Shown: one piece after another, positions 12,256 to 32,751 of the stretch | Numbering within the stretch: the first letter of the stretch is position 1 | How the letters are laid out: each line of letters begins with the position of its first letter | From: Longimicrobiales bacterium | GTDB lineage: Bacteria; Gemmatimonadota; Gemmatimonadetes; Longimicrobiales; Gaopeijiaceae | Direction: 5' to 3' | Length of the DNA: 64,000 nucleotides | Assembly (NCBI GenBank): GCA_965249195.1 | Contig: CBDFLM010000015.1 | Coordinates: forward strand, 476,644-540,643 | Translations under genes and position numbers: made by a program | The notes under the pieces: model-generated | Seen by the model: only the letters and a program-made list of their open reading frames with translations | Told to the model about the DNA's origin: nothing | Databases searched by the model: none

Positions 12256-12269
12256 GGGTCGGGGCCGGT

Positions 12270-13553: not shown

Positions 13554-13704
13554 CAGGAACTGGCTCAGCCCCCCATCTTCACGTGGACCACGTCCCCATA
13601 CGCATTCTGGAGCCGACGCTGCATGGCCGCCGGGTCCTGGCGCCTGCTCAGCACCGTGCGCACGAAGTCGGCGCCGCGGGGTCCGGGTGCTCGGGAGGAA
13701 CGGG

Positions 13705-14793: not shown

Positions 14794-17488
14794 AGGATCC
14801 TCACCTCGCCCTTGCCGGCGTCCATGCGCACACGCTGACCGTTCCGCAGGCGTTCGAGCGGCGAGCCGCCGACCCCGACGATCGTCGGGATACCGAGCTC
14901 CCGAGCGACGACGGCCGAGTGCGAGAGTACGCTGCCCCGCTCGATGATCAGACCGGAGCAGGCCGGGAAGGCGGGGACCCAGCCGGGATCGGTCCGTTCC
15001 GTCACCAGAATCTCACCGTCGAGGCCCTCGGTGTCTTCGAAGCCATGCGCGAGGCGCACCGGACCCTCGATCACGCCAGGGCAGCAGGAGGTGCCTCGCA
15101 GCACGTCGGGGTCCTCGTCGCCGAGTTCGGCCAGGAGGTCGAGGCTCCGCAGCAACGTGGGATGGCGCAGCGTGGCGCCGGCCGCCCCCCGAGTGACGAA
15201 CCGATCCGGAGGGGGGTCCGTGCTCCGGTACTCGTCGAACTCTCGCCGACGCACCTGTGCTAGACCGCCCAGATCGAGGGTGATCGGTCGCCCCTCGACG
15301 AAGGCCAGGATCTCCTCGACCGTCAGGTAGAACACGTCGTGCTCGTCGCTCAGCGCACCGAGCCGCTCCAGGTTTCGACCCACGCCTCGGAAGAGGCGCC
15401 TTACGACGCCAAACGTCCTCGTACGTTCGAATCGCAGCCGCTCCCGATCGCTTACCGCGCGGCGCGCCCAACGCAGGACCGCGAAGTAGATCGGGCGACG
15501 GAGCCCACCCAGGCGGGCACGCACCTGCTCCTCGGCGCCCTCACGAATCGCGGTCTTACGCGCGTTGATCTCCTCCGAAGACGGCACGCCGTTGCGCACG
15601 TACCCCTGCACGCTTGCGACGACCAAGTGCGGTCGATCGTGGAAGTCGAGGGTCTCCAGCTTGAGCTCGTCCACGCAGCGGCAGCCGTACTCCTCGATGT
15701 AGCGCGCCAGATGTGGCCTCAAGTCGGGAGCGAACCCTTCCTGCAGGGCCGCCCACAGGTCCACCGGGTCACCCGTGACGAAGCGCTCGCGAACGGACGG
15801 ATCGCCCTCGACGTGTCGCGCGATCTCGAGCAGAAGACGCATCGGCTCGGTGCTCTTCAGCTCGCCGTGCCCGCAGAGGAGGTCGTTTTGCAGCGACGCC
15901 GCGCCGTCGTCCGGTCCACGTCCCACCCAACTCTCGGTCAGGCTCGCGAGCATCCCGAACGCGATCATGCACCGGGTGTCGTTCACGATCGGAGCGGTCC
16001 AGTGGCGAAGGACCCGGTCCTCCAGGTGGTGGTACAGCGCGACCTGCTCGGTGAGGCTCAGCCTCCCGAGATCCTGCGTCTCGAGGGGACGGCACACGCG
16101 TTCCACCCGCTCCAGGAACCTTTCGTTGGCTCGTACGCCTCCGAACATGCGGGTGCCCAGCCGGAGCAGGAGCGCCATGCGACGCACGGCGCCGTGCCGG
16201 GGCGCCTCGGCGACCACGGAGTCGAAGAGCGGCTGCAGATCGCCCTCCAGCGACTGCTTCACGCCCATCATCGTTTCCATGAACGCGCCGCTCTTGCCGA
16301 CCAGTGGGAACAGCGCCAGCAGGCGATACCAGTTGAGCAGGTTGTAGTACACGCGTCCGCGGACGAGGCCGAGCATGTTGCGGAACATTCACTCGCGCTC
16401 GTGGACGAGGGCGTCGGGGACCCCCATGATCCTGCACGTCTGGAAGTAGACCTCCCGGTACGCCCTGCTCACGTGTGAGAACGTGAGGGGCGTTGTGACG
16501 CCCGCGTAGCTCTCGATGATGTTCGAGTTGTCCCAGATCACCGCGTTCCCGCCGGCGACGCGTTCGTCGAAGAGCGAGTCCGGAGGCAGCGTGGTAATGG
16601 GGCGGGTCTGAAGCGAATAGAGCCGTCCGCCCGAAAAAGCCCACTCGAAGTCCTGGGGCGACCCGAGCTCGCGCTCGAGCCTCAACGACATACGGGCGAC
16701 CTCCCGCACCTGGTCGTTCGTGAGCGAAGGCCGCCTCGAACGGTCGGCTTCGACGGGAACTAGGTGGGTCCCGCCGTTCGGGCCGCGCACGATGGCGCGC
16801 GACTTCTCGGCAATCGTCGTCACGAAATCCAAGGTGGTGCGGTCCACGACGAAGCGGTCGGACTCCAGCTCGCCTCCGACGATGCCTTCGCCCTGGCCCC
16901 ACACGCTTTCCACGACCAGCCCGTCTCGATCGCCCGGGTCGAGCGGGTTCCGCGAGAATGAGACCCCCGCCGAATCCGAATCGACCATACGCTGCACGAT
17001 CACGCCCATACGGGGCACCGTGTCCGCGGCGCCGATCGCGCGACGGTAGGCCACGTTCCGCTCGGAGAAGGCCGACGCCCAGCACCGTCCGATCGCGTCC
17101 AACACCGTGTCCGCGCCCCGCCGGTAGAGGTAGGTCTCGAACTGGCCGGCGAACGAGTGCTCCGTGCCGTCTTCATCCAGACCGCTGGAGCGCACCGCGA
17201 CGTACGCATCGTCGAGCTCGAGCCGGGAGAGCGCGCCACGGACCGCGCTCGCGACCTCCGAAGGCACCCGCAGCGTGAGGGTTCCCGCCGACTGGGCGTC
17301 GGCGGACGAGCCACCCGCGCGACGTACCGCTTCCGCGAGAGAGCGTCGAACGCTTCGACGGCGATGCAGAACCACGGGGGCACGGTGCATCCGATCTTTT
17401 CCAGGGCCGCGAGTCGAGCGGCCTTGCCCCCGGCTCTCACGGATAGGGTGTTGGCAGGCGAGTGCGGGCCGAGGGGCTCGATGCTCAT
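14790..17488 (-). CDS. PEP-utilizing enzyme (PpsA / rifampin-phosphotransferase-like: PPDK_N ATP-grasp plus C-terminal phosphohistidine swivel domain), disrupted by a frameshift near 17333-17344 and an in-frame TGA at 16389-16391
   Basis: True N-terminus MSIEPLGPHSPANTLSVRAGGKAARLAALEKIGCTVPPWFCIAVEAF sits in the 17000..18388 frame. The gene continues in frame 16389..17543 (...AVRSSGLDEDGTEHSFAGQFETY...GVIVQRMVDSDSAGVSFSRNPL...) and ends ...VHERE-TGA-ATG-FRNMLGLVRGRVYYNLLNWYRLL. It then runs to 14790, where the swivel domain GVIEGPVRLAHGFEDTEGLDGEILVTERTDPGWVPAFPACSGLIIERGSVLSHSAVVARELGIPTIVGV is found. The start overlaps the UbiA stop as ATGA. Confidence 0.7.
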
Positions 17489-18381
17489 GCTCCCACCCCC
17501 GTCCACTGCGCCAAGGTCGGAGCGAGGACCTGGGTGAACGCAAAGAGCGCGGCGAGCCCCTCGACCGTCTTGAAGCGCTCGGGGTGCCGCGCGACGTGGA
17601 CGATACCGCAGAGAAGCGCGGCGCCCGCAGGCCACACGAAGACGTGCACGCCGACCTGGAACGCGGAGACGGCAGCTAAAACGACGGCGAGGGTCACCGC
17701 GGTGAACGTCCACCCCGGACCCGACACCGTGAGGTACGTGCCGAGGGCGGGATGAGCGTCCGGGTCGAGCTTGCGGCACAACTCGAGGGCGAAGGCCGCC
17801 CCCAACCCCGTCAAAGCGAACCAGAGGACCGGCGCGGTGAAGGTCGAGGTCGGCACGGCGGCCGCGGTCGCGAACGCGTAGATCGGGACGATGATGACCT
17901 GGTGCGTGACGGCGTACAGGAACGGTCTGCCACCCAGGCAAGTCGGCGCGAAGAACTCGCGGTACATGAGTAGGGCGTAGAGCACGCACAGACCGAAGAG
18001 GGCGCCTGGCAGGACACCGACACCGATCGCGATCGCGGCGGCACCGAGCAGGAGCCCAGTCACGCAGAGCCACAGCCCGGTGCGCGCCCCTCGCTCGCTC
18101 AACAGGCCACGAGGGAGGGGACGCTCGGGGTGGGCTGCGCGATTCTTGTCGAGGTCCTTCAGCTCGTCCATCAGCCGCATCGCCGACAGCAGGCCGGCGA
18201 TCCCGAGGACCGCGATCACGAGGCCCCCCACGTCCAGGCGCGCCCTCACCACGTACTGGGCCGCCGCCTGCGCCGTACCGAACACGAGCAGCGCGGGGAG
18301 CTGGAACCGCTCCCGGACGAAAACGCTCCACGCAGCGAGGAGCGAGCCTGGCGCCCGAGCGGCATGGGACATCTCGCTCAT
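17485..18381 (-). CDS. UbiA-family aromatic / polyprenyl prenyltransferase (integral membrane)
   Basis: 298 aa from MSEMSHAARAPGS. Asp-rich motif LMDELKDLDKNRAAHPERPLPRGLLS (NDxxDxxxD, RPLPSG) plus 8-9 TM helices. The track ORF 17485..19563 upstream of this Met is Arg-rich junk. ATGA overlap with the AMP-ligase stop. Confidence 0.8.
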   Translation of the reverse strand: MSEMSHAARAPGSLLAAWSVFVRERFQLPALLVFGTAQAAAQYVVRARLDVGGLVIAVLGIAGLLSAMRLMDELKDLDKNRAAHPERPLPRGLLSERGARTGLWLCVTGLLLGAAAIAIGVGVLPGALFGLCVLYALLMYREFFAPTCLGGRPFLYAVTHQVIIVPIYAFATAAAVPTSTFTAPVLWFALTGLGAAFALELCRKLDPDAHPALGTYLTVSGPGWTFTAVTLAVVLAAVSAFQVGVHVFVWPAGAALLCGIVHVARHPERFKTVEGLAALFAFTQVLAPTLAQWTGVGA

Positions 18382-19818
18382 CGTCCAATACCTTCCTTGG
18401 ACAGCGTCGCGGAGCGGTCGATCCGGGCGCGGTGCCGCCGATCGCGCACGATCGAGACGTCCACGGCGCCCTCGATCTCCGGAAAGCGGCTCGAGAAGTG
18501 CCAGCCCGCTGCGGCGACGCGGCGCTGGACCGCCTCGCCGTAGAGGATCAGGCGACCGTCCTGACCGCGACGGACGAAGCACGCGCTCGTGCGGAGCTCG
18601 GAATAGAGCCGCTGCTCGAGGTCGAACTCGCCCGCGGCCTGTGACGCCCGACCGGCGTACCACCACCCTTCGTCGTCGGCGATGACACGATCCCCCATGC
18701 TGTGCCAGCGGCGGCCTTCGGTGTCGTAGCGGCTCCCCCCGTTCGCCTGGGCGGATCCTTCGTCCAGTCGGGTGGCGACGTTGTCTCCGCTGACCCAGAG
18801 TCCGTCCGGCTCGGGGCGTGCGGAGATCACGGGGACGGGCACACCGATGAAGAGCGCCTGGAACAGGTTGCGGGCCTGGCTGCGCTCGACGGCTTCGCGG
18901 GCGTCGACCTTCGCGACGGGCTCCGCCTCCGGCCCGCCGTAGACGTGTGTCCACCCGGCGTCTGGCCAGCGCCGGAAGCAGCGCTCGAGGATCCGGCAAT
19001 CGGTCTGTGCTCCTCCTACCACGACCGATCGCAGACCGCTCAGGTGCTCGCGCGTCTGGTCGAACCTCAGCAAACTCAGGAGGAACGCTGGACCCGTGGT
19101 GAGCGTGGCCACCCGGAGCCGCTCCGAGAGGGCCGCGATCCCGCGCAGCTCGGCGCGACCCCAGCGCTTGGGGACGAGCAAAGCGCCTCGGCCCGTGCCG
19201 AGGTGGAGGAGAGCGAGGTTGGGGAAGACGCAGAGGGCGGGCTCGTCGAACCGATCGAGCGGATCGCCAGCGGTGATCGCCTCGTGTAGGCTCCACATGC
19301 ACTTGTGGCTGCGGACGATGCCCTTGGGAGGGCCGGTGGTTCCAGAGGAGAACGTGATGGTGGCCGTGGCATCCGGATCCACCTCTTGGCAATCGAACGT
19401 CCGCGACCCAGCGAAGCGCACGGCGCGGCCGATGTGGATCCATCGCCGAATCCGCCGCGCGGCCGGGACCCGCGCCGCCCAGAGCTGCGCGAGGCGTGAG
19501 CCGATGAAGGCCCTGGGAGCCACCCGGTCGAGCACGTTCTGCACCTCGCGCAGCGGGAGCCACGGCTCCACGAAAACGATGATCACGCCGAGCCCGAGGA
19601 GGGCGAGGATGGTCGCGTAGAGGAGTGGGTCAGGAGGGGACAGCACCAATACCGTGTCGCCCGCCGACAGGCCTTCGCGCTTCGCGAGCGCTTGTGCCCC
19701 CCCCCCCGGCCAATCGGCCGATTTCGCCGAAGGACACCCGGCCGTCCTTGAGCGTCCAAAGCGCCGGGCGGTGCGGTCGTTCCCGCAGGTGCGGCAATAC
19801 CCGGGTCGCGCAGTTCAT
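18378..19818 (-). CDS. AMP-dependent synthetase / ligase (acyl-CoA synthetase / fatty-acyl-AMP ligase family), frameshifted at a G11 tract
   Basis: N-terminus MNCATRVLPHLRERPHRPALWTLKDGRVSFGEIGRLAGGGG in frame 19630..19818. It continues ...AQALAKREGLSAGDTVLVLSPPDPLLYATILALLGLG in frame 18378..19649, with AMP-binding motif TFSSGTTGPPKG. The junction is the homopolymer 19697-19707. Confidence 0.75.
19697..19707. repeat. C11/G11 homopolymer at the AMP-ligase frameshift
   Basis: ttgtg-CCCCCCCCCCC-ggcc read directly. Confidence 0.9.
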
Positions 19819-20396
19819 GGAGCCTCGTTCAGCCGCTTGATGTTGCCGATGTTGCGCCGAAAGATCCGCGCGATCTCGTAGGCAGAGAGGCGCATGAGGA
19901 CTTGGTCGGCCACGCCGGGGTCATCGCGGAAGAAGAGCGTGAAGCTCAGGCGGCAGGCGTCCTCACCCAGGGGTTCGTAGATCTGCTCGGTCACGAGCTC
20001 GCCCCTGGTGGTGGGTGCCCCCTGCACGTTGTAGATGCGGAGTCGACGCCGGAGCGGTCCCACGAGCTCGAAGTACTCGTCCCAGGTCATCCCACTTTCG
20101 TCCGCGTTCTTGAATGACCGTCGAATCGACCCCCGTGCGCCGTCCTTGGCCTCGTGCGGGTTCAAGGGGGTGATGTGATCGACGAAGACGGACCAGGCGC
20201 TCGCGTTCCTCGAGTCGGCGAGGTACGCGAACACGCTCCCGCAGGCGTCTGCGATGTCGACGCCTTCCTTGACGAGCCGGTGGGCGTATCCCGCGTGGTG
20301 CCGGTAGGGACTCCAAAGAAGCACGGCAGCGAACGCGGATAGCGGAAGCACGAGCACCACATACCTGATCTGCGGGCGTCTCACGATCGTCTTCAT
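19815..20396 (-). CDS. SRPBCC (START / Bet v1-like, polyketide-cyclase-type) lipid-binding domain protein with N-terminal membrane anchor; first gene of the operon
   Basis: 193 aa. N-terminal TM YVVLVLPLSAFAAVLLW, then about 150 aa with an alpha/beta pattern typical of Polyketide_cyc2 / SRPBCC. ATGA overlap with the next gene. About 1 kb of lower-GC non-coding DNA lies upstream. Confidence 0.5.
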   Translation of the reverse strand: MKTIVRRPQIRYVVLVLPLSAFAAVLLWSPYRHHAGYAHRLVKEGVDIADACGSVFAYLADSRNASAWSVFVDHITPLNPHEAKDGARGSIRRSFKNADESGMTWDEYFELVGPLRRRLRIYNVQGAPTTRGELVTEQIYEPLGEDACRLSFTLFFRDDPGVADQVLMRLSAYEIARIFRRNIGNIKRLNEAP

Positions 20397-20600
20397 CGCT
20401 GACCGATGGCGCGGGGGATAGGGTTAGGCTGTCACTCCTGGAACCTTCAACGCCACGCGCCGTCAACCCATACGCACAGATACGTAGCCCGTCTTGGGAG
20501 ACTACTTAGGACGTCTCGCCAGTAGCTGCGCTCACTTTCGTAAAACTCGTTGTATTACATGGACTTAGTCGAAACAGCGTGGATTGGGTCAGGAGAGTAA
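20397..20600 (-). promoter_or_regulatory. Putative promoter / leader region of the 13-gene operon
   Basis: Non-coding, lower GC. TTGACG / TTGAAG-like hexamers sit 60-120 nt upstream of the first ATG. No confident -10 element, so this is a region-level call only. Confidence 0.25.
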
Positions 20601-21099
20601 GGGTCGATGGACCCGGCTGGGGAGCTCCCCGCTACTCGCTAGCTCCGGCCACTCCCGGTCCGCCGGCCCGGGAGCGGCTCCTGCGGCCTCGTAGACAAGG
20701 CCACACCGCGAGGTCCGGGGGCCGACGTCGTCGAGTCGGTGATCGAGTGCCGCCTCATCCTTCCGGGCATGCCTTACGGACCCAGGTGCGCTTTCCGCGC
20801 GGCCTCGCTCCTAGGATGTCGGTCCAGTCACAGACCCATCGGGCGATGGTGTCGTTCCTGATTGACATCTTGGGTGGAGCTTGAGGAGCCCCGAGGCTCA
20901 GAGCCGGGCTTCCGGCGACCTCTCCTCATCGTCCAGGCGGACGCATTCAATCGGAGTAGACTGCGGACCGTGATGTTCCTCGTCGGGCTGGACATCGTCG
21001 GTGACAAGCTGATCTGACTCTTCGGACCTCGAGGCTGGGAGCCGCTGTGCTATCGGGGTTACCAACCAGGTGTGCACGTTCTCTGTGCACGAAATGCAG

Positions 21100-21394
21100 C
21101 TAACATCATCTTCAGCCTCCCACCCGCTCCTTCAGCTCCTCGAAGAAGTTCTCGACCACGATGACCTCGGCCTCGGGACCGGCGGCCTCGGCATTTACCC
21201 TCGTAGGGGCGGACTGTCAGGAATCGCTGGTCGTCCGGCGCGATGGGATAGAAGTTGTCGGCCGCCCCAACGAAGTATTTCTCCCTCAATACCTCTTCCC
21301 GGTGTAGGCATCAACGATTGCGTAGAGAGGCGTGTTGGGATCGGCGCCGTAGTGGAAGTAAATGATATTCGTGTGCAGATCGAGCTGGATGCAT
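21100..21394 (-). pseudogene. Remnant of the C-terminus of a TolB-like / PD40 beta-propeller protein gene, truncated by the IS insertion
   Basis: Minus-strand fragments ...IIYFHYGADPNTPLYAIVDAYTGKRY*, ...KYFVGAADNFYPIAPDDQRFLTV... and the hallmark C-terminal ...VIVVENFFEELKERVGG* lie in different frames. The upstream part of the gene is missing beyond the IS. Confidence 0.4.
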
Positions 21395-21452
21395 TGAAGT
21401 GACCCCCGGAACCTGATCCAGTTATTGTGGGACTCCTTGAGCAGGAGGAGTC

Positions 21453-21719
21453 ATGCAAAAGAGGCGGTTTCGGGAAGAGCAAATCATCGGGATTCTGCAA
21501 GAAGTGGAAGCTGGAGCGACGATCCGTGAGATGTGTCGCAGGCACGGGATCGCGGAGACGACGTACTATCGGTGGCGCACGAAGTACGGTGGTATGGACG
21601 TGAACGAGGCGCGACGCCTCAAGCAGGTCGAGGAGGAGAACCGACGGCTGAAGCGGATCGTGGCCGACCAGGCCTTGAATCTTCAGATCCTGAAGGACTT
21701 GTTGGGAAACGGATCGTGA
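21453..21719 (+). CDS. IS3-family transposase OrfA (HTH)
   Basis: MQKRRFREEQIIGILQEVEAGATIREMCRRHGIAETTYYRWRTKYGGMDVNEARRLKQVEEENRRLKRIVADQALNLQILKDLL. Shows the IS3 / IS911 OrfA HTH plus leucine zipper. Confidence 0.85.
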   Translation: MQKRRFREEQIIGILQEVEAGATIREMCRRHGIAETTYYRWRTKYGGMDVNEARRLKQVEEENRRLKRIVADQALNLQILKDLLGNGS

Positions 21720-22579
21720 CGGCCCGGGAACGGCGCCAGGTCGTCGAGCAGGTGCAAGCCGTGCGAGAGGTTTCAGAACGCAGAGCGATCCGGTACACGG
21801 GTTTTCCACGCTCTACGATGCGATATCGCAGCACTCGCGATCCCCAGGAGCTTCTACGAGCTCGCATCGTAGAGTTGGCGCAGGAGCGGCCACGCTGGGG
21901 CTACCGGATGATCCACGTGATGCTTCGACGAGAAGGCCGGCTGGTGAACAGGAAACGAGTTCAACGACTCTACAGGGAGGAAGGGCTCGCGGTGCGTTCG
22001 AAGGGAAGGAAACGTAGGAGCCAGGCCCCTCGACCGATCCGAGAGGCGTTGAGCGGCCCGAACGAGCGGTGGAGCATGGACTTCGTCTCTGGCACGCTGA
22101 GCAACGGCCGCCAATTTCGGTGCCTGACGATCATGGACGAATTCAGTCGCGAGTGCCTGGCGATTCACATCGCGCATTCGATTCCGGCCGCCGGGGTCAT
22201 CGAGGTGATGGAGTGCCTCAAAGAGTCCAGAGGGTTGCCCGAAGTGATCATCACGGACAACGGCTCCGAGTTCCGCAGCCGTGCGTTCGATTCATGGGCC
22301 TACGCTCGAGGCGTGAAGCTCGATTTTATTCAACCGGGCAAGCCCGTCCAGAACGGCTTCATCGAGAGCTTCAACGGAACACTCCGGGGCGAGTGCTTGA
22401 ACCTGCACTGGTTCCTCTCGATCCACGACGCGAAACGTTCGATCGAGCAATGGAGAGCTGACTACAACGAAGTTCGTCCCCATAGCTCCTTGGGCTTTCT
22501 GACTCCCGAGGAGTTTATGGATATTCATTCACCGAGCGAAGAGAACCTCGCTCCCAAAAATATCTCGGAAGTCCCATGA
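21704..22579 (+). CDS. IS3-family transposase OrfB (DDE integrase core), expressed as an OrfAB fusion by -1 frameshift near TTGGGAAAC
   Basis: The -1 frame from about 21704 reads GKRIVTARERRQ...GYRMIHVMLRREG...WSMDFVS...ITDNGSEFRS...NGFIESFNGTLRGE...YNEVRPHSSLGFLTPEEF (rve domain). The track ORF start at 21533 is out-of-frame junk that overlaps orfA. Confidence 0.8.
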   Translation, partial: GKRIVTARERRQVVEQVQAVREVSERRAIRYTGFPRSTMRYRSTRDPQELLRARIVELAQERPRWGYRMIHVMLRREGRLVNRKRVQRLYREEGLAVRSKGRKRRSQAPRPIREALSGPNERWSMDFVSGTLSNGRQFRCLTIMDEFSRECLAIHIAHSIPAAGVIEVMECLKESRGLPEVIITDNGSEFRSRAFDSWAYARGVKLDFIQPGKPVQNGFIESFNGTLRGECLNLHWFLSIHDAKRSIEQWRADYNEVRPHSSLGFLTPEEFMDIHSPSEENLAPKNISEVP

Positions 22580-22608
22580 TTTTTGGATCAACTTCGGGGG
22601 TCACTTCA

Positions 22609-23178
22609 GCCGAGCTACCGGATTACCTGCACGGCCCGACGTTGTTCGCTTGGCTGACGGGCTGGAGGCGTGGCGAAGTGTTCGGTCTCACGTGGGCTCA
22701 AGTTGATTTCGACGCAGGCATCGTTCGCCTCGAACCCGGTACAACCAAGAACCTTCAGGGTCGCGAGTTCCCGTTCTGGGGTCTTCCCGAACTAGCTGCC
22801 TTGCTGGAAGCCCAGCGTGATCGGGCTAGGGAACTAGGCCGGAGGCGTGGCGAGTTCGTGACCCTTGTCTTCCATCGTGATGGAAAGCCCCTGGGCGACC
22901 ACCGCAAGGCTTGGGCACAAGCGTGCGAACGCGCCGGTCTGGCGGGGCTGCTATTCCACGACTCGCGACGCTCAGCCGTTCGCAATCTGGAGAGGGCAGG
23001 GGTGCCACGCTCGACCGCGATGCGCCTGACCGGCCACAAGACGGAAGCGGTCTACAGGCGCTACGCAATCGTGGATTCCGTGATGATCGAGGAGGGCGTC
23101 CAGAAGCTCGCGCGGCTGGTGGCGAACGGCGGCAAGGCTCGCACGGTATTACCCATGACGGTCGCGGCGCAGGGGTGA
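22609..23178 (+). pseudogene. Tyrosine recombinase / phage-integrase C-terminal catalytic-domain fragment; the N-terminal about 200 aa are missing at the IS boundary
   Basis: LTGWRRGEVFGLTWAQVDFDAGIVRLEPGTTKNLQGREFP...FHDSRRSAVRNLERAGVPRSTAMRLTGHKTEAVYRRYAIVD carries the R...HxxR...Y motifs. Homology starts immediately after IRR. The track ORF start at 22576 lies inside the IS. Confidence 0.7.
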
Positions 23179-23323
23179 CGACGGCTTCTCTTTTCGATCG
23201 CGGCGTGGCACAATCCTGGCACAATCACGGCCTGGCCAGGGTCTTGATCGCGTTTTGCGTACACGCCCGTAATCCCGTAAGTCGTTGTGTAGCAATGAAA
23301 CACAGAGTAGAGTTTCATGTTGA

Positions 23324-23394
23324 TGCCCCCTGGTGTAAGGGCAGCACAAGGGTCTTTGGAACCCTTGGTCCAGGTTCGAATCCTGGGGGGGCAA
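23324..23394 (+). tRNA. tRNA-Gln (anticodon TTG)
   Basis: Hand-folded cloverleaf. Acceptor stem TGCCCCC / GGGGGCA (U1:A72). D-stem GTGT / GCAC with loop AAGGGCA. Anticodon stem AGGGT / ACCCT with loop CTTTGGA. T-arm CCAGG-TTCGAAT-CCTGG. No encoded CCA. It lies 146 bp downstream of the integrase fragment. Confidence 0.6.
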
Positions 23395-23416
23395 TGGACG
23401 ACGTGGCCCGGACTGC

Positions 23417-25255
23417 ATGGTGATGTCGAAAGCTCCAGGACGGTTGTTCTCGAAGATGATCCCGGCAATCCTGACGTTGCTCGCTGGCGTCGCGGTCCCG
23501 GCGTTGCTCCCGGCTGCGCTGTGGGGTCAGGTCACACCTTCCTCTTCGCCACAGGTGACCATCTCCGCCGAGGAAGCGGTAGATGCCGCGCGAAACCAGC
23601 AACGCGCCTTCGAGCGCGACCGACGACGGTGGTCTCCCGTTTCGCGCCACTACAGCGGGTCCAGATGCGACGAGCGCATCGGTCGCCTCTGTCTGCGCTA
23701 TGACGAGGGGGGTGATTGGTGGCCGGCCGAGGACGGCCCTCGCTTGGCGGTCGCCCGAGACGGGCTGTTGGATTCGCTGGCCGTTGCGACGCGGCGTGCC
23801 CCGAAAAGCGCCTGGGTGCTCGGTCAGCTGGTGGCGTATCTCGGGGAGGCCGGCCGCTGGACTGAAGCAGAGGAGTTCGCGCGTGCGTGCTCGGTGGTTG
23901 AGAGCTGGTGGTGCGCCGGCCTTCTCGGCTTCGTGCTCCACGCCAAGGGGCGATACACCGAGGCGGAGAAGGCCTTTCGGCGCGCCCTGGACACCACGGA
24001 GTCTGCCGAGAGGGAGCGCTGGTTGGATCCGGAAGTGCTGCTGGACGCCGCCGGCCGCGACGTACTCGACGATACCCGGGACCTGGGACACGCGAGCGAG
24101 AAACGGTTGCTCGCTCTCCTGTGGAGTTTCGCGGACCCCCTCTACCTCGTGGAGGGCAACGACCGCCTGACCGAGCATTGGGCGCGATGGATGCTGGCGA
24201 GGGTCCGCGAGGACGCTCGCAACCCGTACGCCATGTCCTGGGGGCGTGATCTCGAGGAGCTTCTCGTCCGCTATGGTCCCGAGGCCGGATGGGAGCGCTC
24301 GGGCGAGAGGCCCGGGGTGCTCGAGGTGAATGAGAGCATGGTCGGCCACCCCCACCCCGAGAGCCGTGTCTATCTGCCCCCGGGAGAGGTCCTCCGCACC
24401 CCTGCTGCGGTCGAATCAGGGCAGTGGCGATCGCGGGTGCGTCGCCCGCGCAGTGGGTACGCTCCGCCCTACGCTCCCGTGATCATACCGGCCCGAGGCG
24501 AGGTGCTCGCGTTTCCGGCGGGTGACAGCGTGAGCCTGATCGGGATCTATGGGCTTCCCGAAGACACGACCCACCACTCGTCACACGAGCACCCCCCCTT
24601 TGAGCCCCCTGAGCTCTGGCGCGACACGCCTTTCGAGGCGGGACTCTTCCTCGTCCCGCTATCGGGGGCGCCAATCTCCGAGGCTCGGACCATCGGGAAG
24701 GCCCAGGGTTCGGTATTGCTCAGTGTCGCCGCTGGCGAGTACGTGGCCAGTCTGGAGGTTTGGGATCCTTCGGGTGGCCTGGCGGGACGTCTCCGGCAGT
24801 CGTTCGTGTTGGCTCCGTCTCCTCCCGACGTGCCGAGGCTATCCGACCTTCTCCTGCTAGATCGGCTGCTACCGGATTCGCCGACCGTGCAGGACGCCGC
24901 ATCCCATGCGAGGCTGGCGGACGCCCTCGCGCCCGGAGAAGCCGTGATCGTCGGCTGGCAGGTATACGGGCTCGGCTGGCGGCCCCAAGAGGTCCTGTCG
25001 TATCGCTTGACCCTCGTTGCGTCGGGCAGCGGATTCTTTGGAAAGGTCGGACGCTGGCTAGGCCTGGGCGCCGACGACGAGCCCCGGCACTTGTCGTGGG
25101 AAGAACCGGGACCGGGCTCTCCGGGCGCGGTGTGGCGGAGCGCGGTCCTCGAGCTCCCCGAGCTTGAGAGCGGCGATTACACGCTCCGGTTGGAGTTGGC
25201 AAGCCTGGGACGAGGCACCCTCGTGCGCGAGCGCGCTGTGTCGATTCGTGACTGA
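23417..25255 (+). CDS. Secreted hypothetical protein (signal peptide; possible GWxTD-like domain)
   Basis: 612 aa. N-terminal MVMSKAPGRLFSKMIPAILTLLAGVAVPALLPAALWGQ. No confident family assignment. Confidence 0.5.
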   Translation: MVMSKAPGRLFSKMIPAILTLLAGVAVPALLPAALWGQVTPSSSPQVTISAEEAVDAARNQQRAFERDRRRWSPVSRHYSGSRCDERIGRLCLRYDEGGDWWPAEDGPRLAVARDGLLDSLAVATRRAPKSAWVLGQLVAYLGEAGRWTEAEEFARACSVVESWWCAGLLGFVLHAKGRYTEAEKAFRRALDTTESAERERWLDPEVLLDAAGRDVLDDTRDLGHASEKRLLALLWSFADPLYLVEGNDRLTEHWARWMLARVREDARNPYAMSWGRDLEELLVRYGPEAGWERSGERPGVLEVNESMVGHPHPESRVYLPPGEVLRTPAAVESGQWRSRVRRPRSGYAPPYAPVIIPARGEVLAFPAGDSVSLIGIYGLPEDTTHHSSHEHPPFEPPELWRDTPFEAGLFLVPLSGAPISEARTIGKAQGSVLLSVAAGEYVASLEVWDPSGGLAGRLRQSFVLAPSPPDVPRLSDLLLLDRLLPDSPTVQDAASHARLADALAPGEAVIVGWQVYGLGWRPQEVLSYRLTLVASGSGFFGKVGRWLGLGADDEPRHLSWEEPGPGSPGAVWRSAVLELPELESGDYTLRLELASLGRGTLVRERAVSIRD

Positions 25256-25351
25256 TCGCCCCATGCCTCTCAGGCGTTCGTCGATCGGCACCGAATGACC
25301 TCGAGAGCCTCCGGTAGGGGGGGAAGACCCACAACCGTTCCTCGACGCGCG

Positions 25352-25380
25352 TTGACTCCATACCCCGGCGTTTCTAGCTT
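25352..25380 (+). promoter_or_regulatory. Candidate sigma70-type promoter upstream of prs (TTGACT-17nt-TAGCTT)
   Basis: Hexamers read directly at 25352-25357 and 25375-25380, about 80-100 nt upstream of the prs start. Confidence 0.3.
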
Positions 25381-25457
25381 CCCCGGCTATCGGATTTTCT
25401 GTGACAGGGGAGCGTCGGTGGCGGCGACTCCTGCAACGGCCCCCGGAGCCCGGACGC

Positions 25458-26423
25458 ATGGACGACACGTATCGACGCGGACCGATGCTCTTGCTGGCGG
25501 GCCGGTCGAACCGCCCACTGGCAGGTGAGATCGGTAGCATTCTCGACTTCCCGGCGGACGGTGTGACGATCCGGGATTTCGCTGACGGCGAGATTTTCGT
25601 CCGCATCGATCGCAACGCTCGAGGTCGCGACGTGTTCATCGTCCAGTCCACTGCCGCTCCCGCCGAGAACGTGGTCGAGCTACTGTTGCTCCTGGACGCG
25701 GCGAAGCGCGCATCCGCTGCCAGGGTGACGGCGGTCGTGCCGTACTTCGGCTACGGGCGCCAGGACCGTAAGGATCAGCCCCGTGTGGCGATTGGGGCGA
25801 AGCTCATGGCTAACTTGATCGTCGCCGCCGGCGCGGATCGCGTCGTGTCCATCGATTTTCACCAACATCAGATCCAGGGATTCTTCGACATTCCGGTCGA
25901 TCACCTGTACGCGGCACCGGTCATCACCCGGTACTTTCGCGAGAAGAAGCTCGAGGACCTCGTGGTCGTTGCGCCCGACGTCGGCTCGGCTAAGATGGCG
26001 CGTGGCTTTTCGAAGCGGCTGGGCGCAACGTTCGCGATCATCGACAAGCGGCGTACGGGACCGAACCGCTCGGTCGTGCAGACCGTTGTGGGCGACGTAG
26101 ACGGCAAGAACTGCATCTTGACCGACGACATGGTGGATACCGGGGGGACCCTCTCCAACGCGGTGCGTGCGCTGAAGGATCGGGGTGCGGTCACGATCTT
26201 CGCGACGGCTACCCACCCCCTGCTCTCAGGACAGGCATCGGAGTGGCTGGCCGAGTCGCCCCTAGACGAGATGGTCGTGACCAATACCGTTCCCGTGCGA
26301 GAAGAGCGATGCTTCGACCAGCTCACGGTACTCTCGGTGGCTCCGCTTCTCGCCAACGCCATCGAGTTCATCCATTCGAACGAGTCGGTGAGCCAGTTGT
26401 TCGAGATCCGCGAAGACGACTGA
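25458..26423 (+). CDS. prs: Ribose-phosphate pyrophosphokinase (PRPP synthetase)
   Basis: Motifs VPYFGYGRQDRK and DLVVVAPDVGSAKMARGFSKRLG...IIDKRR...ILTDDMVDTGGT. Start Met is ambiguous: 25458 (MDDTYRR) or 25485 (MLLLAGRS). Confidence 0.85.
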   Translation: MDDTYRRGPMLLLAGRSNRPLAGEIGSILDFPADGVTIRDFADGEIFVRIDRNARGRDVFIVQSTAAPAENVVELLLLLDAAKRASAARVTAVVPYFGYGRQDRKDQPRVAIGAKLMANLIVAAGADRVVSIDFHQHQIQGFFDIPVDHLYAAPVITRYFREKKLEDLVVVAPDVGSAKMARGFSKRLGATFAIIDKRRTGPNRSVVQTVVGDVDGKNCILTDDMVDTGGTLSNAVRALKDRGAVTIFATATHPLLSGQASEWLAESPLDEMVVTNTVPVREERCFDQLTVLSVAPLLANAIEFIHSNESVSQLFEIREDD

Positions 26424-26577
26424 CCACGACCACGACGGGCGATTTGCAACCATGGGCTGCGTCGCGCGCGCGAGTTCAACGACAGAAGGCATCACGACAC
26501 AGCCACCGCCGCCGTGGGCGCGGGAGTCCCGGTAATCGAGATCGGAGTCGAACGGCGGCGTAGACAAGAGAGAGAAT

Positions 26578-27255
26578 ATGAGCCAGGAAGCCAAGCTGAG
26601 CGCCGAGCCGCGCGCCAAGTATGGAAAGGGGGCAGCTCGCAAGCTCAGAGCCCGCGGGAAGGTTCCTGCCATCCTGTACGGTCGCGACGTCGAGTCGATG
26701 CCGCTCTCCGTCGAGGCCCAAGAGGCGGAGCGTCTCTTCCAAAACATCACCGTGGAAAACACCATTGTCGGGCTGGATATCGCCGGCGAGAGCGAACCCG
26801 TGCAGACGCTCGTTCGTGAGATCCAGGTTCATCCCTTCCGACCAACCTTGCTGCACATCGACTTCTACCGCGTCCAGGCCGGGGTCATGTTGGAGGTCGC
26901 GATTCCGGTGCACCTGAACGGCGTGCCGGACGGCGTCAGACAGCACGGGGGGGTCCTGCAGCAGGTCGTCCATGAGGTCCCGGTGAGGTGCCTGCCGTCG
27001 CGCATACCCGTTTCGCTCGAAATCGACGTGCGCGGCCTCGACCTCGGCGACTCCATTCTCGCCGCCGACCTGAATCTCGACGAAGACATCGAGCTGCTCG
27101 TCGAGCTGGACCAAACCGTGTGCCAGGTCGTAGTGCCGCGTCTCGTGCTCGAGGAGGAAGAGCCAGAAGAGGAAGGGGAGCTCGAGGAAGGCCTGGAAGG
27201 GGACGAAGCCGCCGAGGAAGGGGACGACTCAGGCCAGGAAGGGGACCGCGAATAA
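26578..27255 (+). CDS. rplY: 50S ribosomal protein L25 / general stress protein Ctc (long form with acidic tail)
   Basis: AKYGKGAARKLRARGKVPAILYG...LHIDFYRV plus a C-terminal E/D-rich extension. Sits in the conserved prs-rplY-pth cluster. Confidence 0.85.
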   Translation: MSQEAKLSAEPRAKYGKGAARKLRARGKVPAILYGRDVESMPLSVEAQEAERLFQNITVENTIVGLDIAGESEPVQTLVREIQVHPFRPTLLHIDFYRVQAGVMLEVAIPVHLNGVPDGVRQHGGVLQQVVHEVPVRCLPSRIPVSLEIDVRGLDLGDSILAADLNLDEDIELLVELDQTVCQVVVPRLVLEEEEPEEEGELEEGLEGDEAAEEGDDSGQEGDRE

Positions 27256-27279
27256 ACGCTGGTCAGCCCCCATGGGACG

Positions 27280-27843
27280 GTGAAGGTTGTCGCGGGGCTC
27301 GGGAACCCCGGATCCCAATACGACGATACGCGTCACAACGTCGGTTGGTGGGCAGTCGACCGGCTCGCGTTCGATTGGCGCTTCGGGCCTTTTCGCCGCG
27401 ACGGGACCGCCTTGACCTCCGGCGGTCGCGTCGGATCGCATTCCTTTCTTCTCGTGAAGCCCCTCACCTTCGTCAATCGAAGCGGCAGCGTCGTCGCCAG
27501 CCTGAGTCACGACCATCAGCTGGACGTCGGCCGCGACCTCCTCGTGGTAGTCGATGACGTGGCTCTCGAGGTCGGCCACCTGAGAATGCGCGCGTCGGGA
27601 GGGGCGGGCGGCCACAACGGCTTGAAATCCGTGGAGGCCGCCCTGGGTACACAGGACTATGCCAGGCTGCGGATCGGCGTCGGTCCGCCACCCGTTGGGC
27701 TCGACCTGACGGAATGGGTGCTGTCTCCGATGCCCCCCGAAGACGAGGACGTGGTGGTGGAGCTGCTTCCGTTGCTGGCGTCGGGCGTGGAAGCATGGTC
27801 GGACGAGGGAGTGGAGGCTGCCATGCGCCGCCTCAACAGGTAG
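27280..27843 (+). CDS. pth: Peptidyl-tRNA hydrolase
   Basis: MKVVAGLGNPGSQYDDTRHNVGW...GHNGLKS. Conserved position after rplY. Confidence 0.9.
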   Translation: MKVVAGLGNPGSQYDDTRHNVGWWAVDRLAFDWRFGPFRRDGTALTSGGRVGSHSFLLVKPLTFVNRSGSVVASLSHDHQLDVGRDLLVVVDDVALEVGHLRMRASGGAGGHNGLKSVEAALGTQDYARLRIGVGPPPVGLDLTEWVLSPMPPEDEDVVVELLPLLASGVEAWSDEGVEAAMRRLNR

Positions 27844-27900
27844 GGCCGGCGCGAGCGCCGCAGGGAACGACCCGAGCTAACGAGAGGAAGCCGAGGGCTG

Positions 27901-30027
27901 ATGACCGATTTGGTGGTGCTTACCGACTGGGTGTGGTTGCTGGGGCTGGGCGGCCTTGGGATCGCGGCCGGAATCTACGGATACGTGAAGAGACAGCCGT
28001 CGGGGTCGGAGACCATGGCGGATCTGTCGGAGCAGATCCACGACGGGGCCATGGCCTTCCTGAGACGCGAGTACACCACGCTCGCAGTCTTCGTTGTCGT
28101 GGTCGCGGCGCTCCTGTTCTTGGCCGTGGGCACCACCGTGGCCATCGCGTACGTGGGCGGGGCCCTCAGCTCGGTGTTTGCGGGGTTCTTCGGAATGAAG
28201 GCCGCAACGCGGGCCAACGTCCGCACGGCGGCGGCCGCCAACGACGTGGGGCAAGGCAAGGCGCTCCGCGTTGCCTTTTTCGGGGCCTCCGTGATGGGGC
28301 TCTCCGTCGCCGCGCTCGGTCTGATCGGCCTTGGTCTGCTCTTCTTGATCTACGCCTCTGCTGCGATTCCGGGGACCGACGACCTGCCGGTTTTCGCGGA
28401 GATCGTCTCGGGCTTCGCGATGGGGGCGAGCTCGATCGCGCTCTTCGCGCGCGTCGGCGGCGGGATCTACACAAAGGCCGCGGACATAGGCGCCGACCTC
28501 GTGGGGAAGGTCGAGGCTGGCATTCCGGAGGACGACCCCCGCAACCCCGCGACCATCGCCGACAACGTGGGTGACAACGTGGGCGACGTCGCGGGAATGG
28601 GCGCCGACATCTTCGAGTCCTATGTCGGCTCGGTCGTGGCTACGATTGCGATTGGCGCCACGGCTCAGGGCCTCGCAGGCGTCAGGATGGAGGCGGTGGT
28701 TCTCCCCATTCTGGCCATAGCCGTCGGTCTATTGGCTTCCCTCGTCGGTATCATGGCCATGAAGGTGCTGGAACGGAGCGACGCGGCGCACGCCCTTCAT
28801 TTCACGACCTTCATCGCGGCCGGGATCTTCCTCGTTACCATGTTCTTCGTCGTGGACAATCTGGGGATGGTGATGGTCGACGGTGCGACCGGGCGGCCTT
28901 ACCCGACCATCGGGCCATGGGTGGCGATGATGGCTGGTACGCTCGTCGGAATCGCCATCGGACTCGTGACACAATACTACACGGCCGCTGGGCCAGTCCG
29001 TAGGATCGCCGACGCCAGCCAGACGGGCTCGGCCACGAATATCATCGCGGGTCTCGCCGTGGGCTTGGAGTCGACGGCCATTCCGGTTCTACTCATCTGC
29101 GCCTCGATATGGACGTCGCACCATTTCGCAGGCCTGTACGGAATCGGCATCGCTGCCGTGGGCATGCTGGCTACGGTGGGCGTGACCATGTCCGTCGATG
29201 CCTACGGCCCGGTGGCGGACAACGCGGGTGGGATCAGCGAGATGAGCGGTCTCGGACCAGAGACCCGTCGGATCACCGACTCCTTGGACGCCATCGGCAA
29301 TACGACTGCCGCGATCGGAAAAGGGTTTGCGATCGGCTCGGCGGCCCTCACCGCGTTGGCTCTGTTCTCAGCCTACGCCACCAAGGTCGGTCTCGCCCAG
29401 ACCGGCATAGACATCGTGAACCCGGACGTGGTGATCGGGATGCTGATCGGTGGCATGCTGCCGTTCTTCGTCAGTGCGCTCACGATGACTGCGGTCGGAA
29501 GGGCGGCTCAGGGCATGGTCGACGAGGTTCGCCGGCAGTTCCGCGAGATCCCGGGAATCATGGATGGAACGGGCAAGCCCGACTCGGCGAGATGTGTGGA
29601 CATCTCAACCCGTGCGGCCTTGCGCGAAATGATCCTCCCCGGCCTCACTGCTATCATCTCGCCCGTGCTGGTGGGGGCCGTTCTGGGGACGGAGGCGCTC
29701 GGCGGCCTGTTGGCTGGGGCGACCGTCACGGGTGTGCTCATGGCGCTCTTCATGGCCAACGCAGGCGGTGCCTGGGACAACGCGAAGAAGTACATCGAGG
29801 CCGGAGCATACGGAGGCAAGGGCTCCGACCCGCACAAGGCCGCGGTAGTTGGGGATACCGTCGGAGATCCTTTCAAAGACACGTCCGGACCGTCCCTCAA
29901 CATCTTGATCAAGCTCATGAGCGTGGTCTCGCTCGTACTCGCGCCCTGGTTCGTACGCGTCCAGGGCCTCCCGGGGGAGGGCGCCACCTCATGGCTGGTC
30001 GAAGTCACGAAGGCCCTCTTCGGCTGA
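27901..30027 (+). CDS. hppA: Membrane-bound H+ / Na+-translocating pyrophosphatase (V-PPase)
   Basis: 708 aa with about 16 TM helices. Motifs [24 protein letters not shown] and [23 protein letters not shown]. Confidence 0.9.
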
Positions 30028-30061
30028 TCCGAGCCCTACGACCCGCTGCGAGGAACTGCCG

Positions 30062-31276: not shown

Positions 31277-31313
31277 CACCGGAGTAGACGCTGAGCTGGC
31301 CGGATGGGGTCGC

Positions 31314-32687: not shown

Positions 32688-32751
32688 TGTCGTAACTCCG
32701 TTTTTCAGGACGTCCTGGCGAGGACGTCTCTTGGCTTCTCATGGCGATCCC

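What the first reader, a model, noticed from the sequence alone, without database searches (positions are those of the whole stretch)
20397..23400. Mobile-element scar at the operon boundary: PD40-gene remnant, an IS3-family element, an integrase fragment, and tRNA-Gln
A 1214-bp IS3-family element (IRs TGAAGTGACCCCCGGAAC / TGAAGTGACCCCCGAAGT; orfA/orfB with a -1 slip near TTGGGAAAC) sits between two broken genes. On one side are the C-terminal pieces of a TolB-like PD40 protein (…VIVVENFFEELKERVGG*). On the other is a tyrosine-integrase catalytic domain whose homology begins exactly at the IS right end, followed 146 bp later by a tRNA-Gln(TTG). An integrase next to a tRNA is the signature of an integrative island. 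The two remnants are on opposite strands and do not belong to the same gene, which implies at least two events (island integration, then IS insertion or deletion). This bears on whether the neighbouring lipid operon was acquired horizontally.
Basis: partly seen in the sequence, partly recalled or inferred. Interest (0 to 1): 0.5.

Follow-up and report, generated by a model that had tools for sequence, protein, structure and literature searches.

The report
IS-mediated rearrangement scar beside tRNA-Gln
A multi-copy insertion sequence has cut an integrase gene in half and, probably by recombining with a second copy of itself, joined two distant chromosome regions in this strain; this is ordinary genome wear and says nothing about where the neighbouring lipid operon came from.

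Summary
These are a 1214-bp IS3-family element (21395-22608), a C-terminal remnant of a PD40/kinase gene (21112-21394, minus strand), a catalytic-domain-only tyrosine integrase (22609-23178) and tRNA-Gln(TTG) (23324-23394). A MazF/PemK toxin remnant (20862-21014) is also there.

Near-identical sister strains from public metagenome assemblies show how the arrangement arose. Five sister contigs carry an intact 363-aa integrase in front of tRNA-Gln. Their identity to the window starts at the first base after the IS. In two other sister contigs the lipid operon, the debris and the same IS left junction sit at a different locus with a different right flank. The window is therefore a recombinant, most likely made by homologous recombination between two IS copies. 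That fits the missing target-site duplication, which 7 of 10 other copies have.

The tRNA-Gln attachment-site idea is not supported. No att repeat was found. The tRNA's 5' end faces the integrase, whereas the four closest relatives examined face the 3' end of a Ser or Leu tRNA. The lipid operon is compositionally native, and its adjacency to the integrase is strain-specific. This is an ordinary finding of low novelty.

The parts
19815..20396 (-). Last gene of the neighbouring lipid/isoprenoid cluster (SRPBCC/polyketide-cyclase-like, 193 aa). It marks the boundary and is not part of the scar.
   Evidence: Pfam Polyketide_cyc2, 1.3e-4, below the curated cut-off. The same gene and operon are present in sister loci L021-L023.
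20397..21111 (.). About 0.7 kb of non-coding debris with no intact ORF. It is shared with sister strains.
   Evidence: Six-frame translation shows only short stop-free pieces. No Pfam hit apart from PemK. It is about 99% identical in L021/L022, apart from the micro-inversion.
20624..20770 (.). A 147-bp segment that is inverted in place in sister strains L021/L022 relative to the window and L023.
   Evidence: Secondary BLAST hit in the opposite orientation. Re-inverting the segment removes nearly all mismatches. The boundaries lie at GAGCTC and GCATGC palindromes.
20862..21014 (+). MazF/PemK-type toxin gene remnant (about one third of the domain).
   Evidence: Pfam PF02452, 1.2e-6, profile positions 7-42 of 109.
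21112..21394 (-). 3' remnant of a Ser/Thr-kinase-PD40 beta-propeller gene with two frame breaks. It is truncated at the IS left end.
   Evidence: BLASTP gives 59% identity over 56 aa, E 3e-17, to the C-terminus of the L017 Pkinase-PD40 gene. The nucleotide sequence is 78% identical to the L016/L017 paralogue in the opposite orientation.
21395..22608 (+). IS3-family insertion sequence, 1214 bp, without a target-site duplication (flanks GCAT and GCCG).
   Evidence: At least 12 further copies at 99.3-99.8% identity occur in public long-read assemblies. Of 10 copies checked, 7 have a 4-5 bp duplication.
21395..21412 (+). Left inverted repeat, TGAAGTGACCCCCGGAAC.
   Evidence: Identical in all copies.
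21453..21719 (+). orfA (88 aa, HTH_Tnp_1).
   Evidence: Pfam 1.1e-24. The exact protein is listed in 202 blocks of the public collection.
21704..21710 (+). Candidate -1 slippery heptamer G GGA AAC.
   Evidence: Read directly from the sequence. Conserved in all 12 copies. Frameshifting itself was not tested.
21716..22579 (+). orfB (287 aa as called, DDE transposase with rve and rve_3), in the -1 frame relative to orfA.
   Evidence: Pfam rve 2.8e-23 and rve_3 3e-29. NCBIfam IS3, 252.7 bits against a cut-off of 160.
22591..22608 (-). Right inverted repeat (reverse complement TGAAGTGACCCCCGAAGT).
22609..23178 (+). Tyrosine integrase pseudogene. It corresponds to codons 175-363 of a 363-aa gene, i.e. 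the catalytic domain only. It carries a private L293S change in the HDLRR box.
   Evidence: Pfam, alignment A2 and 99.76% identity to L016 from base 4459 onward. There is one base difference (22964) from five intact sister copies.
23207..23225 (+). Two 8-bp GGCACAAT motifs 11 bp apart, inferred to be arm-type integrase-binding sites.
   Evidence: Analogous tandem motifs occur at the same place after the integrase stop in L012, L014 and L015. One copy is missing in L020. Protein binding is inferred, not shown.
23278..23288 (+). TAAGTCGTTGT motif, conserved near the integrase-proximal end of related elements.
23324..23394 (+). tRNA-Gln(TTG), a native chromosomal gene.
   Evidence: ARAGORN and Rfam RF00005 at 60.3 bits. 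The order tRNA-Gln then TPR gene is conserved in a Longimicrobiales MAG whose TPR protein is 45% identical.

Best explanation
The region is a recombination joint made by a multi-copy IS3-family insertion sequence in a Gemmatimonadota (Longimicrobiales-like) genome. Three steps are proposed.

Step 1 is old and shared with sister strains. The IS sat next to the lipid operon, abutting the 3' stump of a PD40-kinase gene and a dead MazF-type toxin module. It already lacked a target-site duplication.

Step 2 happened in the window's lineage only. Another copy of the same IS inserted into the integrase gene of a small degenerate integrative element lying just upstream of tRNA-Gln. The insertion fell after codon 174, between the SAM-like core-binding domain and the catalytic domain.

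Step 3 was homologous recombination between the two IS copies. It exchanged their flanks. One IS now has the lipid-locus DNA on its left and the integrase 3' half, tRNA-Gln and the TPR gene on its right. An inversion or translocation is more likely than a deletion.

The integrase is therefore dead, and the element's remaining cargo and 5' half now lie elsewhere or are lost. The juxtaposition with the lipid operon is an accident of IS recombination.

Shown: both junctions, their counterparts in sister strains, and the absence of a duplication. Inferred: the order of steps, recombination in the cell rather than in the assembler, and inversion rather than deletion.
For: 1. IS identity and mobility. 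Ten further copies at distinct sites are 99.3-99.8% identical, and 7 of the 10 have a 4-5 bp duplication. The window copy has none (GCAT and GCCG).

2. Right junction. L016 4459-17105 equals window 22609-35273 at 99.76% identity, so identity starts at the first base after the IS and inside an intact 363-aa integrase. The same intact gene is present in L017, L018, L019 and L020.

3. Left junction. L021 and L022 carry the lipid operon, the debris, the PD40 stump and the same IS at the same position. Their IS right flank is different (gcctacccacc..., then an ABM-like ORF, another IS3 element, and DUF8370, DUF8371 and PSD-domain genes).

4. Distance between the loci. In sample ERZ28763718 the lipid locus is on ctg124598 (1.47 Mb) and the integrase/tRNA-Gln locus is on ctg124771 (1.69 Mb). 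About 0.76 Mb of contig lies beyond the IS on the lipid side.

5. Missing sequence. The genes upstream of the integrase in sister strains (Zn-ribbon primase fragment, HTH_17, a 78-aa HTH protein, the PD40-kinase gene, CMAS, GroES/EL) are absent from the window.

6. Decay. The only base change in the integrase fragment, compared with five intact copies, is non-synonymous and falls in a conserved motif (L293S). This is consistent with decay after inactivation, but it is a single observation.

7. Composition. Only the 20-24 kb windows deviate (z 3.3-3.6, GC 0.61). The lipid operon stays within about 1.3 sd.
Against: The reciprocal joint (integrase 5' half - IS - gcctacccacc...) could not be searched for, because the rest of the source contig (1.34 Mb) is not available here.

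The 4 nt next to the IS left end differ between the window (GCAT) and L021/L022 (GTGT). The remaining roughly 1 kb of flank is nearly identical. Simple inheritance of that junction does not predict this.

Whether ctg124598 and ctg124771 belong to one genome is assumed, not shown.

The window comes from a long-read metagenome assembly that shows signs of indel errors, so a mis-join across a multi-copy IS cannot be excluded from sequence alone.
Confidence: 0.72

Rival explanations
1. Assembly chimera. In the real genome the IS in the integrase is a simple insertion with the integrase 5' half on its left and a GCCG duplication. The IS at the lipid locus keeps its L022-type right flank. The assembler joined the two loci through the 1.2-kb repeat.
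For: The IS is present in many copies per genome, for example at least 3 on one contig. The related assemblies have low coverage labels (2x-9x) and split genes that suggest indel errors. Each of the two junctions is explained individually by a known or simple configuration.
Against: A 1.2-kb repeat is normally spanned by long reads. The window IS carries two private SNPs (positions 100 and 698) rather than the majority alleles. Copies without a duplication are common in these genomes: 3 of 10, plus L021/L022. Real IS-IS recombination is therefore frequent there.
Confidence: 0.13
2. One IS inserted into the integrase and then caused an adjacent deletion, or two direct IS copies recombined with loss of the interval. 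On this view the lipid operon and tRNA-Gln were on the same stretch of chromosome and everything between them was deleted.
For: A deletion also leaves a single IS without a duplication, flanked by two truncated genes that point into it.
Against: The same left junction with the same IS already exists in L021/L022. It was therefore not created by a deletion starting in the integrase. In the sister assembly at least about 0.77 Mb, including groES/groEL, would lie between the two IS positions. A deletion of that size is unlikely to be tolerated.
Confidence: 0.08
3. A genomic island integrated at tRNA-Gln, with the integrase next to the tRNA as the att signature, and the lipid operon may be part of or linked to that island.
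For: The integrase belongs to a family that sits next to tRNA genes in 36 of 80 metagenomic loci. Sister strains keep typical island cargo (HTH_17, a primase Zn-ribbon) upstream of the integrase. Nine of those 36 relatives also have a same-strand tRNA after the integrase.
Against: No att repeat was found in the window, L016 or L017. The orientation is opposite to that of the four closest relatives examined. In sister strains the element is only about 2.6 kb and is bounded on the left by a PD40-kinase gene, not by the lipid operon. The lipid operon lies on another contig in sister strains and is compositionally native.
Confidence: 0.05

Closest known systems
IS3-family insertion sequences (possibly the IS407 group; that subgroup assignment is from memory of ISfinder group traits and was not tested)
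   Same: Two ORFs in a 0/-1 arrangement (an HTH OrfA and a DDE rve OrfB). Termini are TG...CA with imperfect 18-bp inverted repeats. Length is about 1.2 kb. Other copies have 4-5 bp target duplications. The element is multi-copy.
   Different: The candidate slippery site is G GGA AAC rather than the A AAA AAG type I recall for IS911 and IS150. No ISfinder name could be checked. The window copy has no duplication.
IS-mediated chromosomal inversions and deletions by homologous recombination between IS copies, as I recall them from IS-rich genomes such as Bordetella pertussis, Yersinia pestis and Shigella (own knowledge)
   Same: A single hybrid IS without a duplication, flanked by DNA from two loci that are separate in close relatives. 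Truncated genes lie on both sides.
   Different: Here it is seen only in uncultured metagenome-assembled Gemmatimonadota strains. The reciprocal joint has not been observed.
Lambda/P4-type tyrosine integrases of tRNA-targeting integrative elements and prophages
   Same: The fragment has a catalytic domain with the R...HxxR...Y signature. The intact sister copy has arm-binding-like and SAM-like N-terminal domains. Tandem arm-type repeats lie between the integrase and the element end. Relatives integrate into the 3' half of tRNA-Ser or tRNA-Leu, with a 58-bp repeat in L015.
   Different: The window copy lacks codons 1-174. The adjacent tRNA-Gln is on the same strand with its 5' end facing the integrase. 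No att repeat is present. In sister strains the element is a remnant of about 2.6 kb.
MazF/PemK type II toxin-antitoxin modules
   Same: 36 residues match the N-terminal third of the PemK profile.
   Different: It is only a fragment. No recognisable antitoxin is present, and the upstream region is scrambled by a 147-bp inversion.

Membership tests
IS3 family insertion sequence | DDE (rve-type) transposase that reaches the curated IS3 model threshold | tested here: met
   orfB scores 252.7 bits against NF033516 (cut-off 160). Pfam rve, rve_3 and HTH_21 also match.
IS3 family insertion sequence | Upstream HTH OrfA overlapping OrfB in the -1 frame, which together cover the full transposase | tested here: met
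   orfA matches HTH_Tnp_1 at 1e-24 and covers IS3 profile positions 1-80. orfB covers positions 88-368. The two overlap at 21716-21719.
IS3 family insertion sequence | Programmed -1 ribosomal frameshift that produces OrfAB | not testable with these tools
   An X XXY YYZ heptamer, G GGA AAC, lies in the orfA frame and is conserved in 12 copies. No expression data are available.
IS3 family insertion sequence | Terminal inverted repeats ending 5'-TG...CA-3' | tested here: met
   The ends read TGAAGTGACCCCCGGAAC ... ACTTCGGGGGTCACTTCA.
IS3 family insertion sequence | Short (3-5 bp) target-site duplication on insertion | tested here: met
   Seven of 10 other copies have 4-5 bp duplications. The window copy does not, and this is explained by recombination.
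Tyrosine recombinase / phage integrase (PF00589) | Catalytic domain with the conserved Arg, His-x-x-Arg and Tyr residues | tested here: met
   Pfam 1.5e-15, profile positions 28-167 of 172. The motifs TGWRRGE, HDSRR and YRRY are visible, and L293S falls inside the HDLRR box.
Tyrosine recombinase / phage integrase (PF00589) | Complete gene with an N-terminal core-binding (SAM-like) domain, so potentially functional | tested here: not met
   Codons 1-174 are absent from the window. They are present in L016-L020, where the SAM-like domain spans residues 77-143.
tRNA-integrated genomic island | Direct repeat of part of the tRNA (att) at the far end of the island | tested here: not met
   No same-strand match longer than 11 nt was found in the 64-kb window, in L016 or in 10 kb upstream in L017; the single 12-nt match in L017 is on the opposite strand. 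The element is truncated, so the repeat may have been lost.
tRNA-integrated genomic island | Island lies on the 3' side of the intact tRNA, as in the closest integrase relatives | tested here: not met
   The integrase and element lie 5' of tRNA-Gln. Relatives L012/L013, L014 and L015 have an opposite-strand tRNA-Ser or tRNA-Leu 108-119 bp after the integrase. However, 9 of 36 more distant relatives show the same-strand arrangement.
tRNA-integrated genomic island | The lipid operon belongs to the island | tested here: not met
   The operon lies on a different contig from the integrase/tRNA-Gln locus in sister strains. Its tetranucleotide and GC composition are not deviant.
tRNA (RF00005) | Covariance-model score above the gathering threshold and a cloverleaf with an anticodon | tested here: met
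   60.3 bits against a threshold of 29. ARAGORN calls Gln(TTG).
MazF/PemK toxin | Full-length PemK domain in an intact ORF | tested here: not met
   Only profile positions 7-42 of 109 match, and the frame is broken upstream.

The most novel reading that the evidence does not exclude
The integrase-to-same-strand-tRNA arrangement is seen in the window's lineage and in 9 of 36 tRNA-adjacent relatives. It could reflect a real alternative integration mode. In that mode the element would insert at the 5' side of a tRNA gene, or carry its 5' half and promoter, and the element arm would then supply the promoter of tRNA-Gln. If so, part of a large integrase family targets tRNA genes from the side opposite to the textbook 3'-end rule.
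Probability: 0.12. Interest if true: 0.45.

Novelty: new member of a known kind. Interest (0 to 1): 0.15.

Why it matters
The main value is as a caution for annotation. An integrase fragment next to a tRNA and an operon would suggest that the operon arrived on an island. Here the adjacency was created by IS recombination in one strain and carries no such information. The locus also documents a very active IS3-family element that drives strain-level rearrangements in uncultured Gemmatimonadota, and it gives a clean natural example of an integrase split between its DNA-binding and catalytic domains. None of this changes current understanding.

Tried and rejected
- Searching the window for attL/attR (a repeat of tRNA-Gln and its flanks) gave only chance matches of 11 nt or less.
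- The same search in L016 and L017 gave matches of 12 nt or less.
- In 3-kb flanks of 36 tRNA-adjacent relatives, a distal att was visible only in L015, with a possible unrelated one in L067. The flanks were too short for the rest.
- The genome-contig scan with the TPR protein gave only one distant relative, L011. Its upstream genes (pdxJ, LPG-synthase/GHMP kinase) have no counterpart in the window.
- Pfam on the reconstructed PD40 remnant and on the debris ORFs gave no hits. An RHH-antitoxin reading of the inverted segment rests on inspection by eye only and was dropped.
- The sigma-70 scan gave no promoter call upstream of tRNA-Gln.
- Four exact-protein look-ups were wasted. One search failed because I mis-set the minus-strand coordinates. 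The others failed because the contig index lacks products that the protein collection does hold.
- The literature check for 5'-side tRNA integration was unproductive. Williams 2002 is not held.
- I considered and rejected the idea that the window arrangement is ancestral. An intact integrase in five sister contigs cannot derive from a truncated one.
Full report
**Observation**

The IS spans 21395-22608 and is 1214 bp long, with the quoted 18-bp inverted repeats.

- orfA (21453-21719, 88 aa) matches HTH_Tnp_1 at 1e-24.
- orfB (21716-22579) matches HTH_21, rve and rve_3. It scores 252.7 bits against the NCBIfam equivalog 'IS3 family transposase' (cut-off 160).
- orfA covers profile positions 1-80 and orfB covers 88-368. 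Together the two frames make one IS3 transposase.
- The heptamer G GGA AAC (21704-21710) lies in the orfA frame three codons before its stop. It fits the X XXY YYZ rule and is invariant in 12 copies. Frameshifting itself is inferred.

Left of the IS, three minus-strand pieces in two frames end in ...VIVVENFFEELKERVGG*, with the stop at 21112-21114. They are 59% identical over 56 aa (E 3e-17) to the C-terminus of a Pkinase-PD40 gene in a sister strain.

Right of the IS, 22609-23178 encodes 189 aa of a tyrosine-recombinase catalytic domain (Pfam 1.5e-15). tRNA-Gln(TTG) lies at 23324-23394 (ARAGORN; Rfam 60.3 bits).

The remaining debris, 20397-21111, has no intact ORF and no domain hit.

**The IS is a live, multi-copy element**

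The exact OrfA protein is listed in 202 blocks of the public collection. Ten copies were fetched from long-read metagenome contigs, up to three from one contig, and they are 99.3-99.8% identical to the window copy over all 1214 bp.

Seven of the ten have a 4-5 bp target-site duplication and three have none. The window copy has none (GCAT on the left, GCCG on the right). It carries two private SNPs.

**Sister strains resolve the history**

The window's 200-aa integrase ORF and its TPR protein are on record from a 1,342,072-bp contig (NCBI and ENA). The same 90%-identity protein clusters contain strains that were fetched as loci.

(a) The integrase side. L016, L017, L018, L019 and L020 carry an intact 363-aa integrase followed by tRNA-Gln and the TPR gene.

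- L016 4459-17105 aligns to window 22609-35273 at 99.76% identity. The alignment begins at the first base after the IS, at nucleotide 523 of the integrase gene.
- The intact protein has a weak arm-binding match (residues 9-47), a SAM-like core-binding domain (77-143) and the catalytic domain (182-328).
- The IS therefore split the gene between its DNA-binding and catalytic halves.
- Upstream of the integrase the sister strains carry a 78-aa HTH protein, an HTH_17 (excisionase-like) protein and a CHC2 zinc-ribbon fragment of a primase. Further upstream are a Pkinase-PD40 gene, CMAS, a methyltransferase, Band_7 and groES/groEL.
- None of this is in the window.

(b) The lipid-operon side. L021, L022 and L023 carry the lipid/isoprenoid cluster, the same debris and the same PD40 stump. 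The cluster includes SRPBCC, AMP-binding, UbiA, PPDK_N, PEP-utilizers, GNAT, P450 and HMG-CoA reductase genes.

- L021 and L022 extend through the IS. They have the same IS at the same left junction, but the right flank reads gcctacccacc... It is followed by an ABM-like ORF, another IS3-family element, and DUF8370, DUF8371 and PSD-domain genes.
- They too lack a duplication (GTGT and GCCT).
- In sample ERZ28763718 the lipid locus is on ctg124598 (1.47 Mb) and the integrase/tRNA-Gln locus is on ctg124771 (1.69 Mb).

**Mechanism**

The simplest account has three steps.

1. An old IS-associated truncation of a PD40-kinase gene occurred next to the lipid operon. It is shared by the window, L021 and L022.
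2. In the window's lineage, a second copy inserted into the integrase gene.
3. Homologous recombination between the two copies exchanged their flanks.

This explains the single IS without a duplication, the two truncated genes that both point into the IS, and the absence of the integrase 5' half and its upstream genes.

If the two sister contigs belong to one chromosome, at least about 0.77 Mb including groEL lies between the two IS positions. An inversion or translocation is therefore more plausible than a deletion. That part is inferred.

The integrase fragment differs from five intact copies at one base, 22964. The change gives L293S inside the conserved HDLRR box. This is compatible with decay after inactivation, but it is a single observation.

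Two weaknesses remain. The reciprocal joint could not be sought. The 4 nt adjoining the IS left end differ between the window (GCAT) and L021/L022 (GTGT), although the rest of the flank is nearly identical.

The main rival is an assembly mis-join across the repeat. I give it about 0.13, because a 1.2-kb repeat is usually spanned by long reads and because copies without duplications are common in these genomes.

**Is tRNA-Gln the attachment site?**

The tRNA is native. A Longimicrobiales MAG whose TPR protein is 45% identical has the same order, tRNA-Gln then TPR gene, but with pdxJ and LPG-synthase/GHMP-kinase genes upstream.

The integrase family is large, with 2831 hits at E <= 1e-10. The context of four close relatives was examined.

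- For P0001, P0014 and P0016, the integrase 3' end faces the 3' end of an opposite-strand tRNA-Ser or tRNA-Leu 108-119 bp away.
- In L015 a 58-bp repeat of the tRNA-Ser 3' half bounds an element of about 3.4 kb.
- The spacer architecture is shared by the window and these relatives. It has tandem GGCACA(A/G)T-type motifs and then a TAAGTnnnTGT motif.
- In the window that architecture runs into the 5' end of same-strand tRNA-Gln about 35 nt later.
- No repeat of the tRNA or spacer of 12 nt or more exists on the same strand in the window, L016 or L017; the only 12-nt match, in L017, is on the opposite strand.

In a survey of 80 metagenomic relatives, 27 have the opposite-strand arrangement and 9 have a same-strand tRNA just after the integrase. 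Four viral contigs show only the opposite-strand form.

The window's arrangement is therefore unusual but recurrent in the wider family. Its meaning is unresolved. It could reflect 5'-side integration, an element-borne tRNA 5' half, or secondary rearrangement. In the sister strains the element is only a remnant of about 2.6 kb, so its distal end has been lost in any case.

**Bearing on the lipid operon**

There is none. The adjacency is specific to this strain.

In 3-kb windows, only those covering 20-24 kb deviate in tetranucleotide usage (z 3.3-3.6) and GC (0.61 against about 0.67). The operon windows stay within about 1.3 sd.

**Verdict**

The feature is a new, unnamed member of the IS3 family. 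It sits at an IS-recombination joint that inactivated a known type of integrase. This is ordinary genome dynamics and of low interest.

Noticed in passing
window 20624-20770: A 147-bp segment in the dead toxin-antitoxin region is inverted in place in sister strains L021/L022 relative to the window and L023, with a 2-nt GC difference at one boundary. The boundaries fall on GAGCTC and GCATGC palindromes, and no flanking inverted repeat is evident. It could be a micro-inversion polymorphism or, less likely, a switch.
   Followed up: partly
L046, L047, L067, L072, L077, L082, L083, L087, L092 (metagenome loci); window 23179-23394: Nine of 36 tRNA-adjacent relatives of this integrase have the tRNA on the same strand with its 5' end facing the integrase stop (Leu-TAA, Leu-CAA, Thr, SeC, Arg), as in the window. 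The other 27 have the usual opposite-strand arrangement. Which half of the tRNA is duplicated in the same-strand class could not be determined.
   Followed up: partly
window 23207-23225; L020: The 11-bp unit carrying GGCACAAT after the integrase stop is present twice in the window, L016, L017 and L018, but once in L020. This is copy-number variation in the putative arm-type binding sites.
   Followed up: partly
L014 3396-5573; proteins P0003, P0006, P0009, P0014, P0037, P0045, P0048: Many homologues in the hit list are catalytic-domain-only ORFs of about 185-192 aa on long contigs, and they start near the same point as the window fragment. One (P0014, in L014) starts immediately after the end of an IS256-type (Transposase_mut) element, which appears to have truncated it. 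Truncated integrase remnants seem common in these genomes.
   Followed up: partly
L017 11572-13137; L021/L022 5844-7276; L016 196-1424: Other IS3-family elements are polymorphic among the sister strains. One type (142-aa OrfA, 270-aa OrfB) is inserted between tRNA-Gln and the TPR gene in L017 only and lies near the lipid locus in L021/L022. L016 carries an IS3-family element with a different ORF pair (95-aa OrfA, 310-aa OrfB) at its contig end.
   Followed up: no
window 19630-19818 and 18378-19649 (minus strand): The AMP-binding gene's Pfam match starts at profile position 53. A 62-aa ORF just upstream, in another frame, looks by eye like the missing N-terminus. The P450 and HMG-CoA reductase genes (10925-13553) are also split differently in different sister assemblies. 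These may be real frameshifts or long-read indel errors.
   Followed up: no
window 6086-20396 (minus strand): A gene cluster combines an AMP-binding enzyme, a UbiA prenyltransferase, split PEP-utilising/PPDK-like proteins, a GNAT, a P450, HMG-CoA reductase, DUF3419 (in sister loci) and an MMPL-like transporter. It looks like an isoprenoid/lipid biosynthetic cluster and is conserved in the sister strains.
   Followed up: no
window 43669-43765: Bacterial small SRP RNA, at the Rfam gathering threshold (40.1 bits against 40).
   Followed up: no
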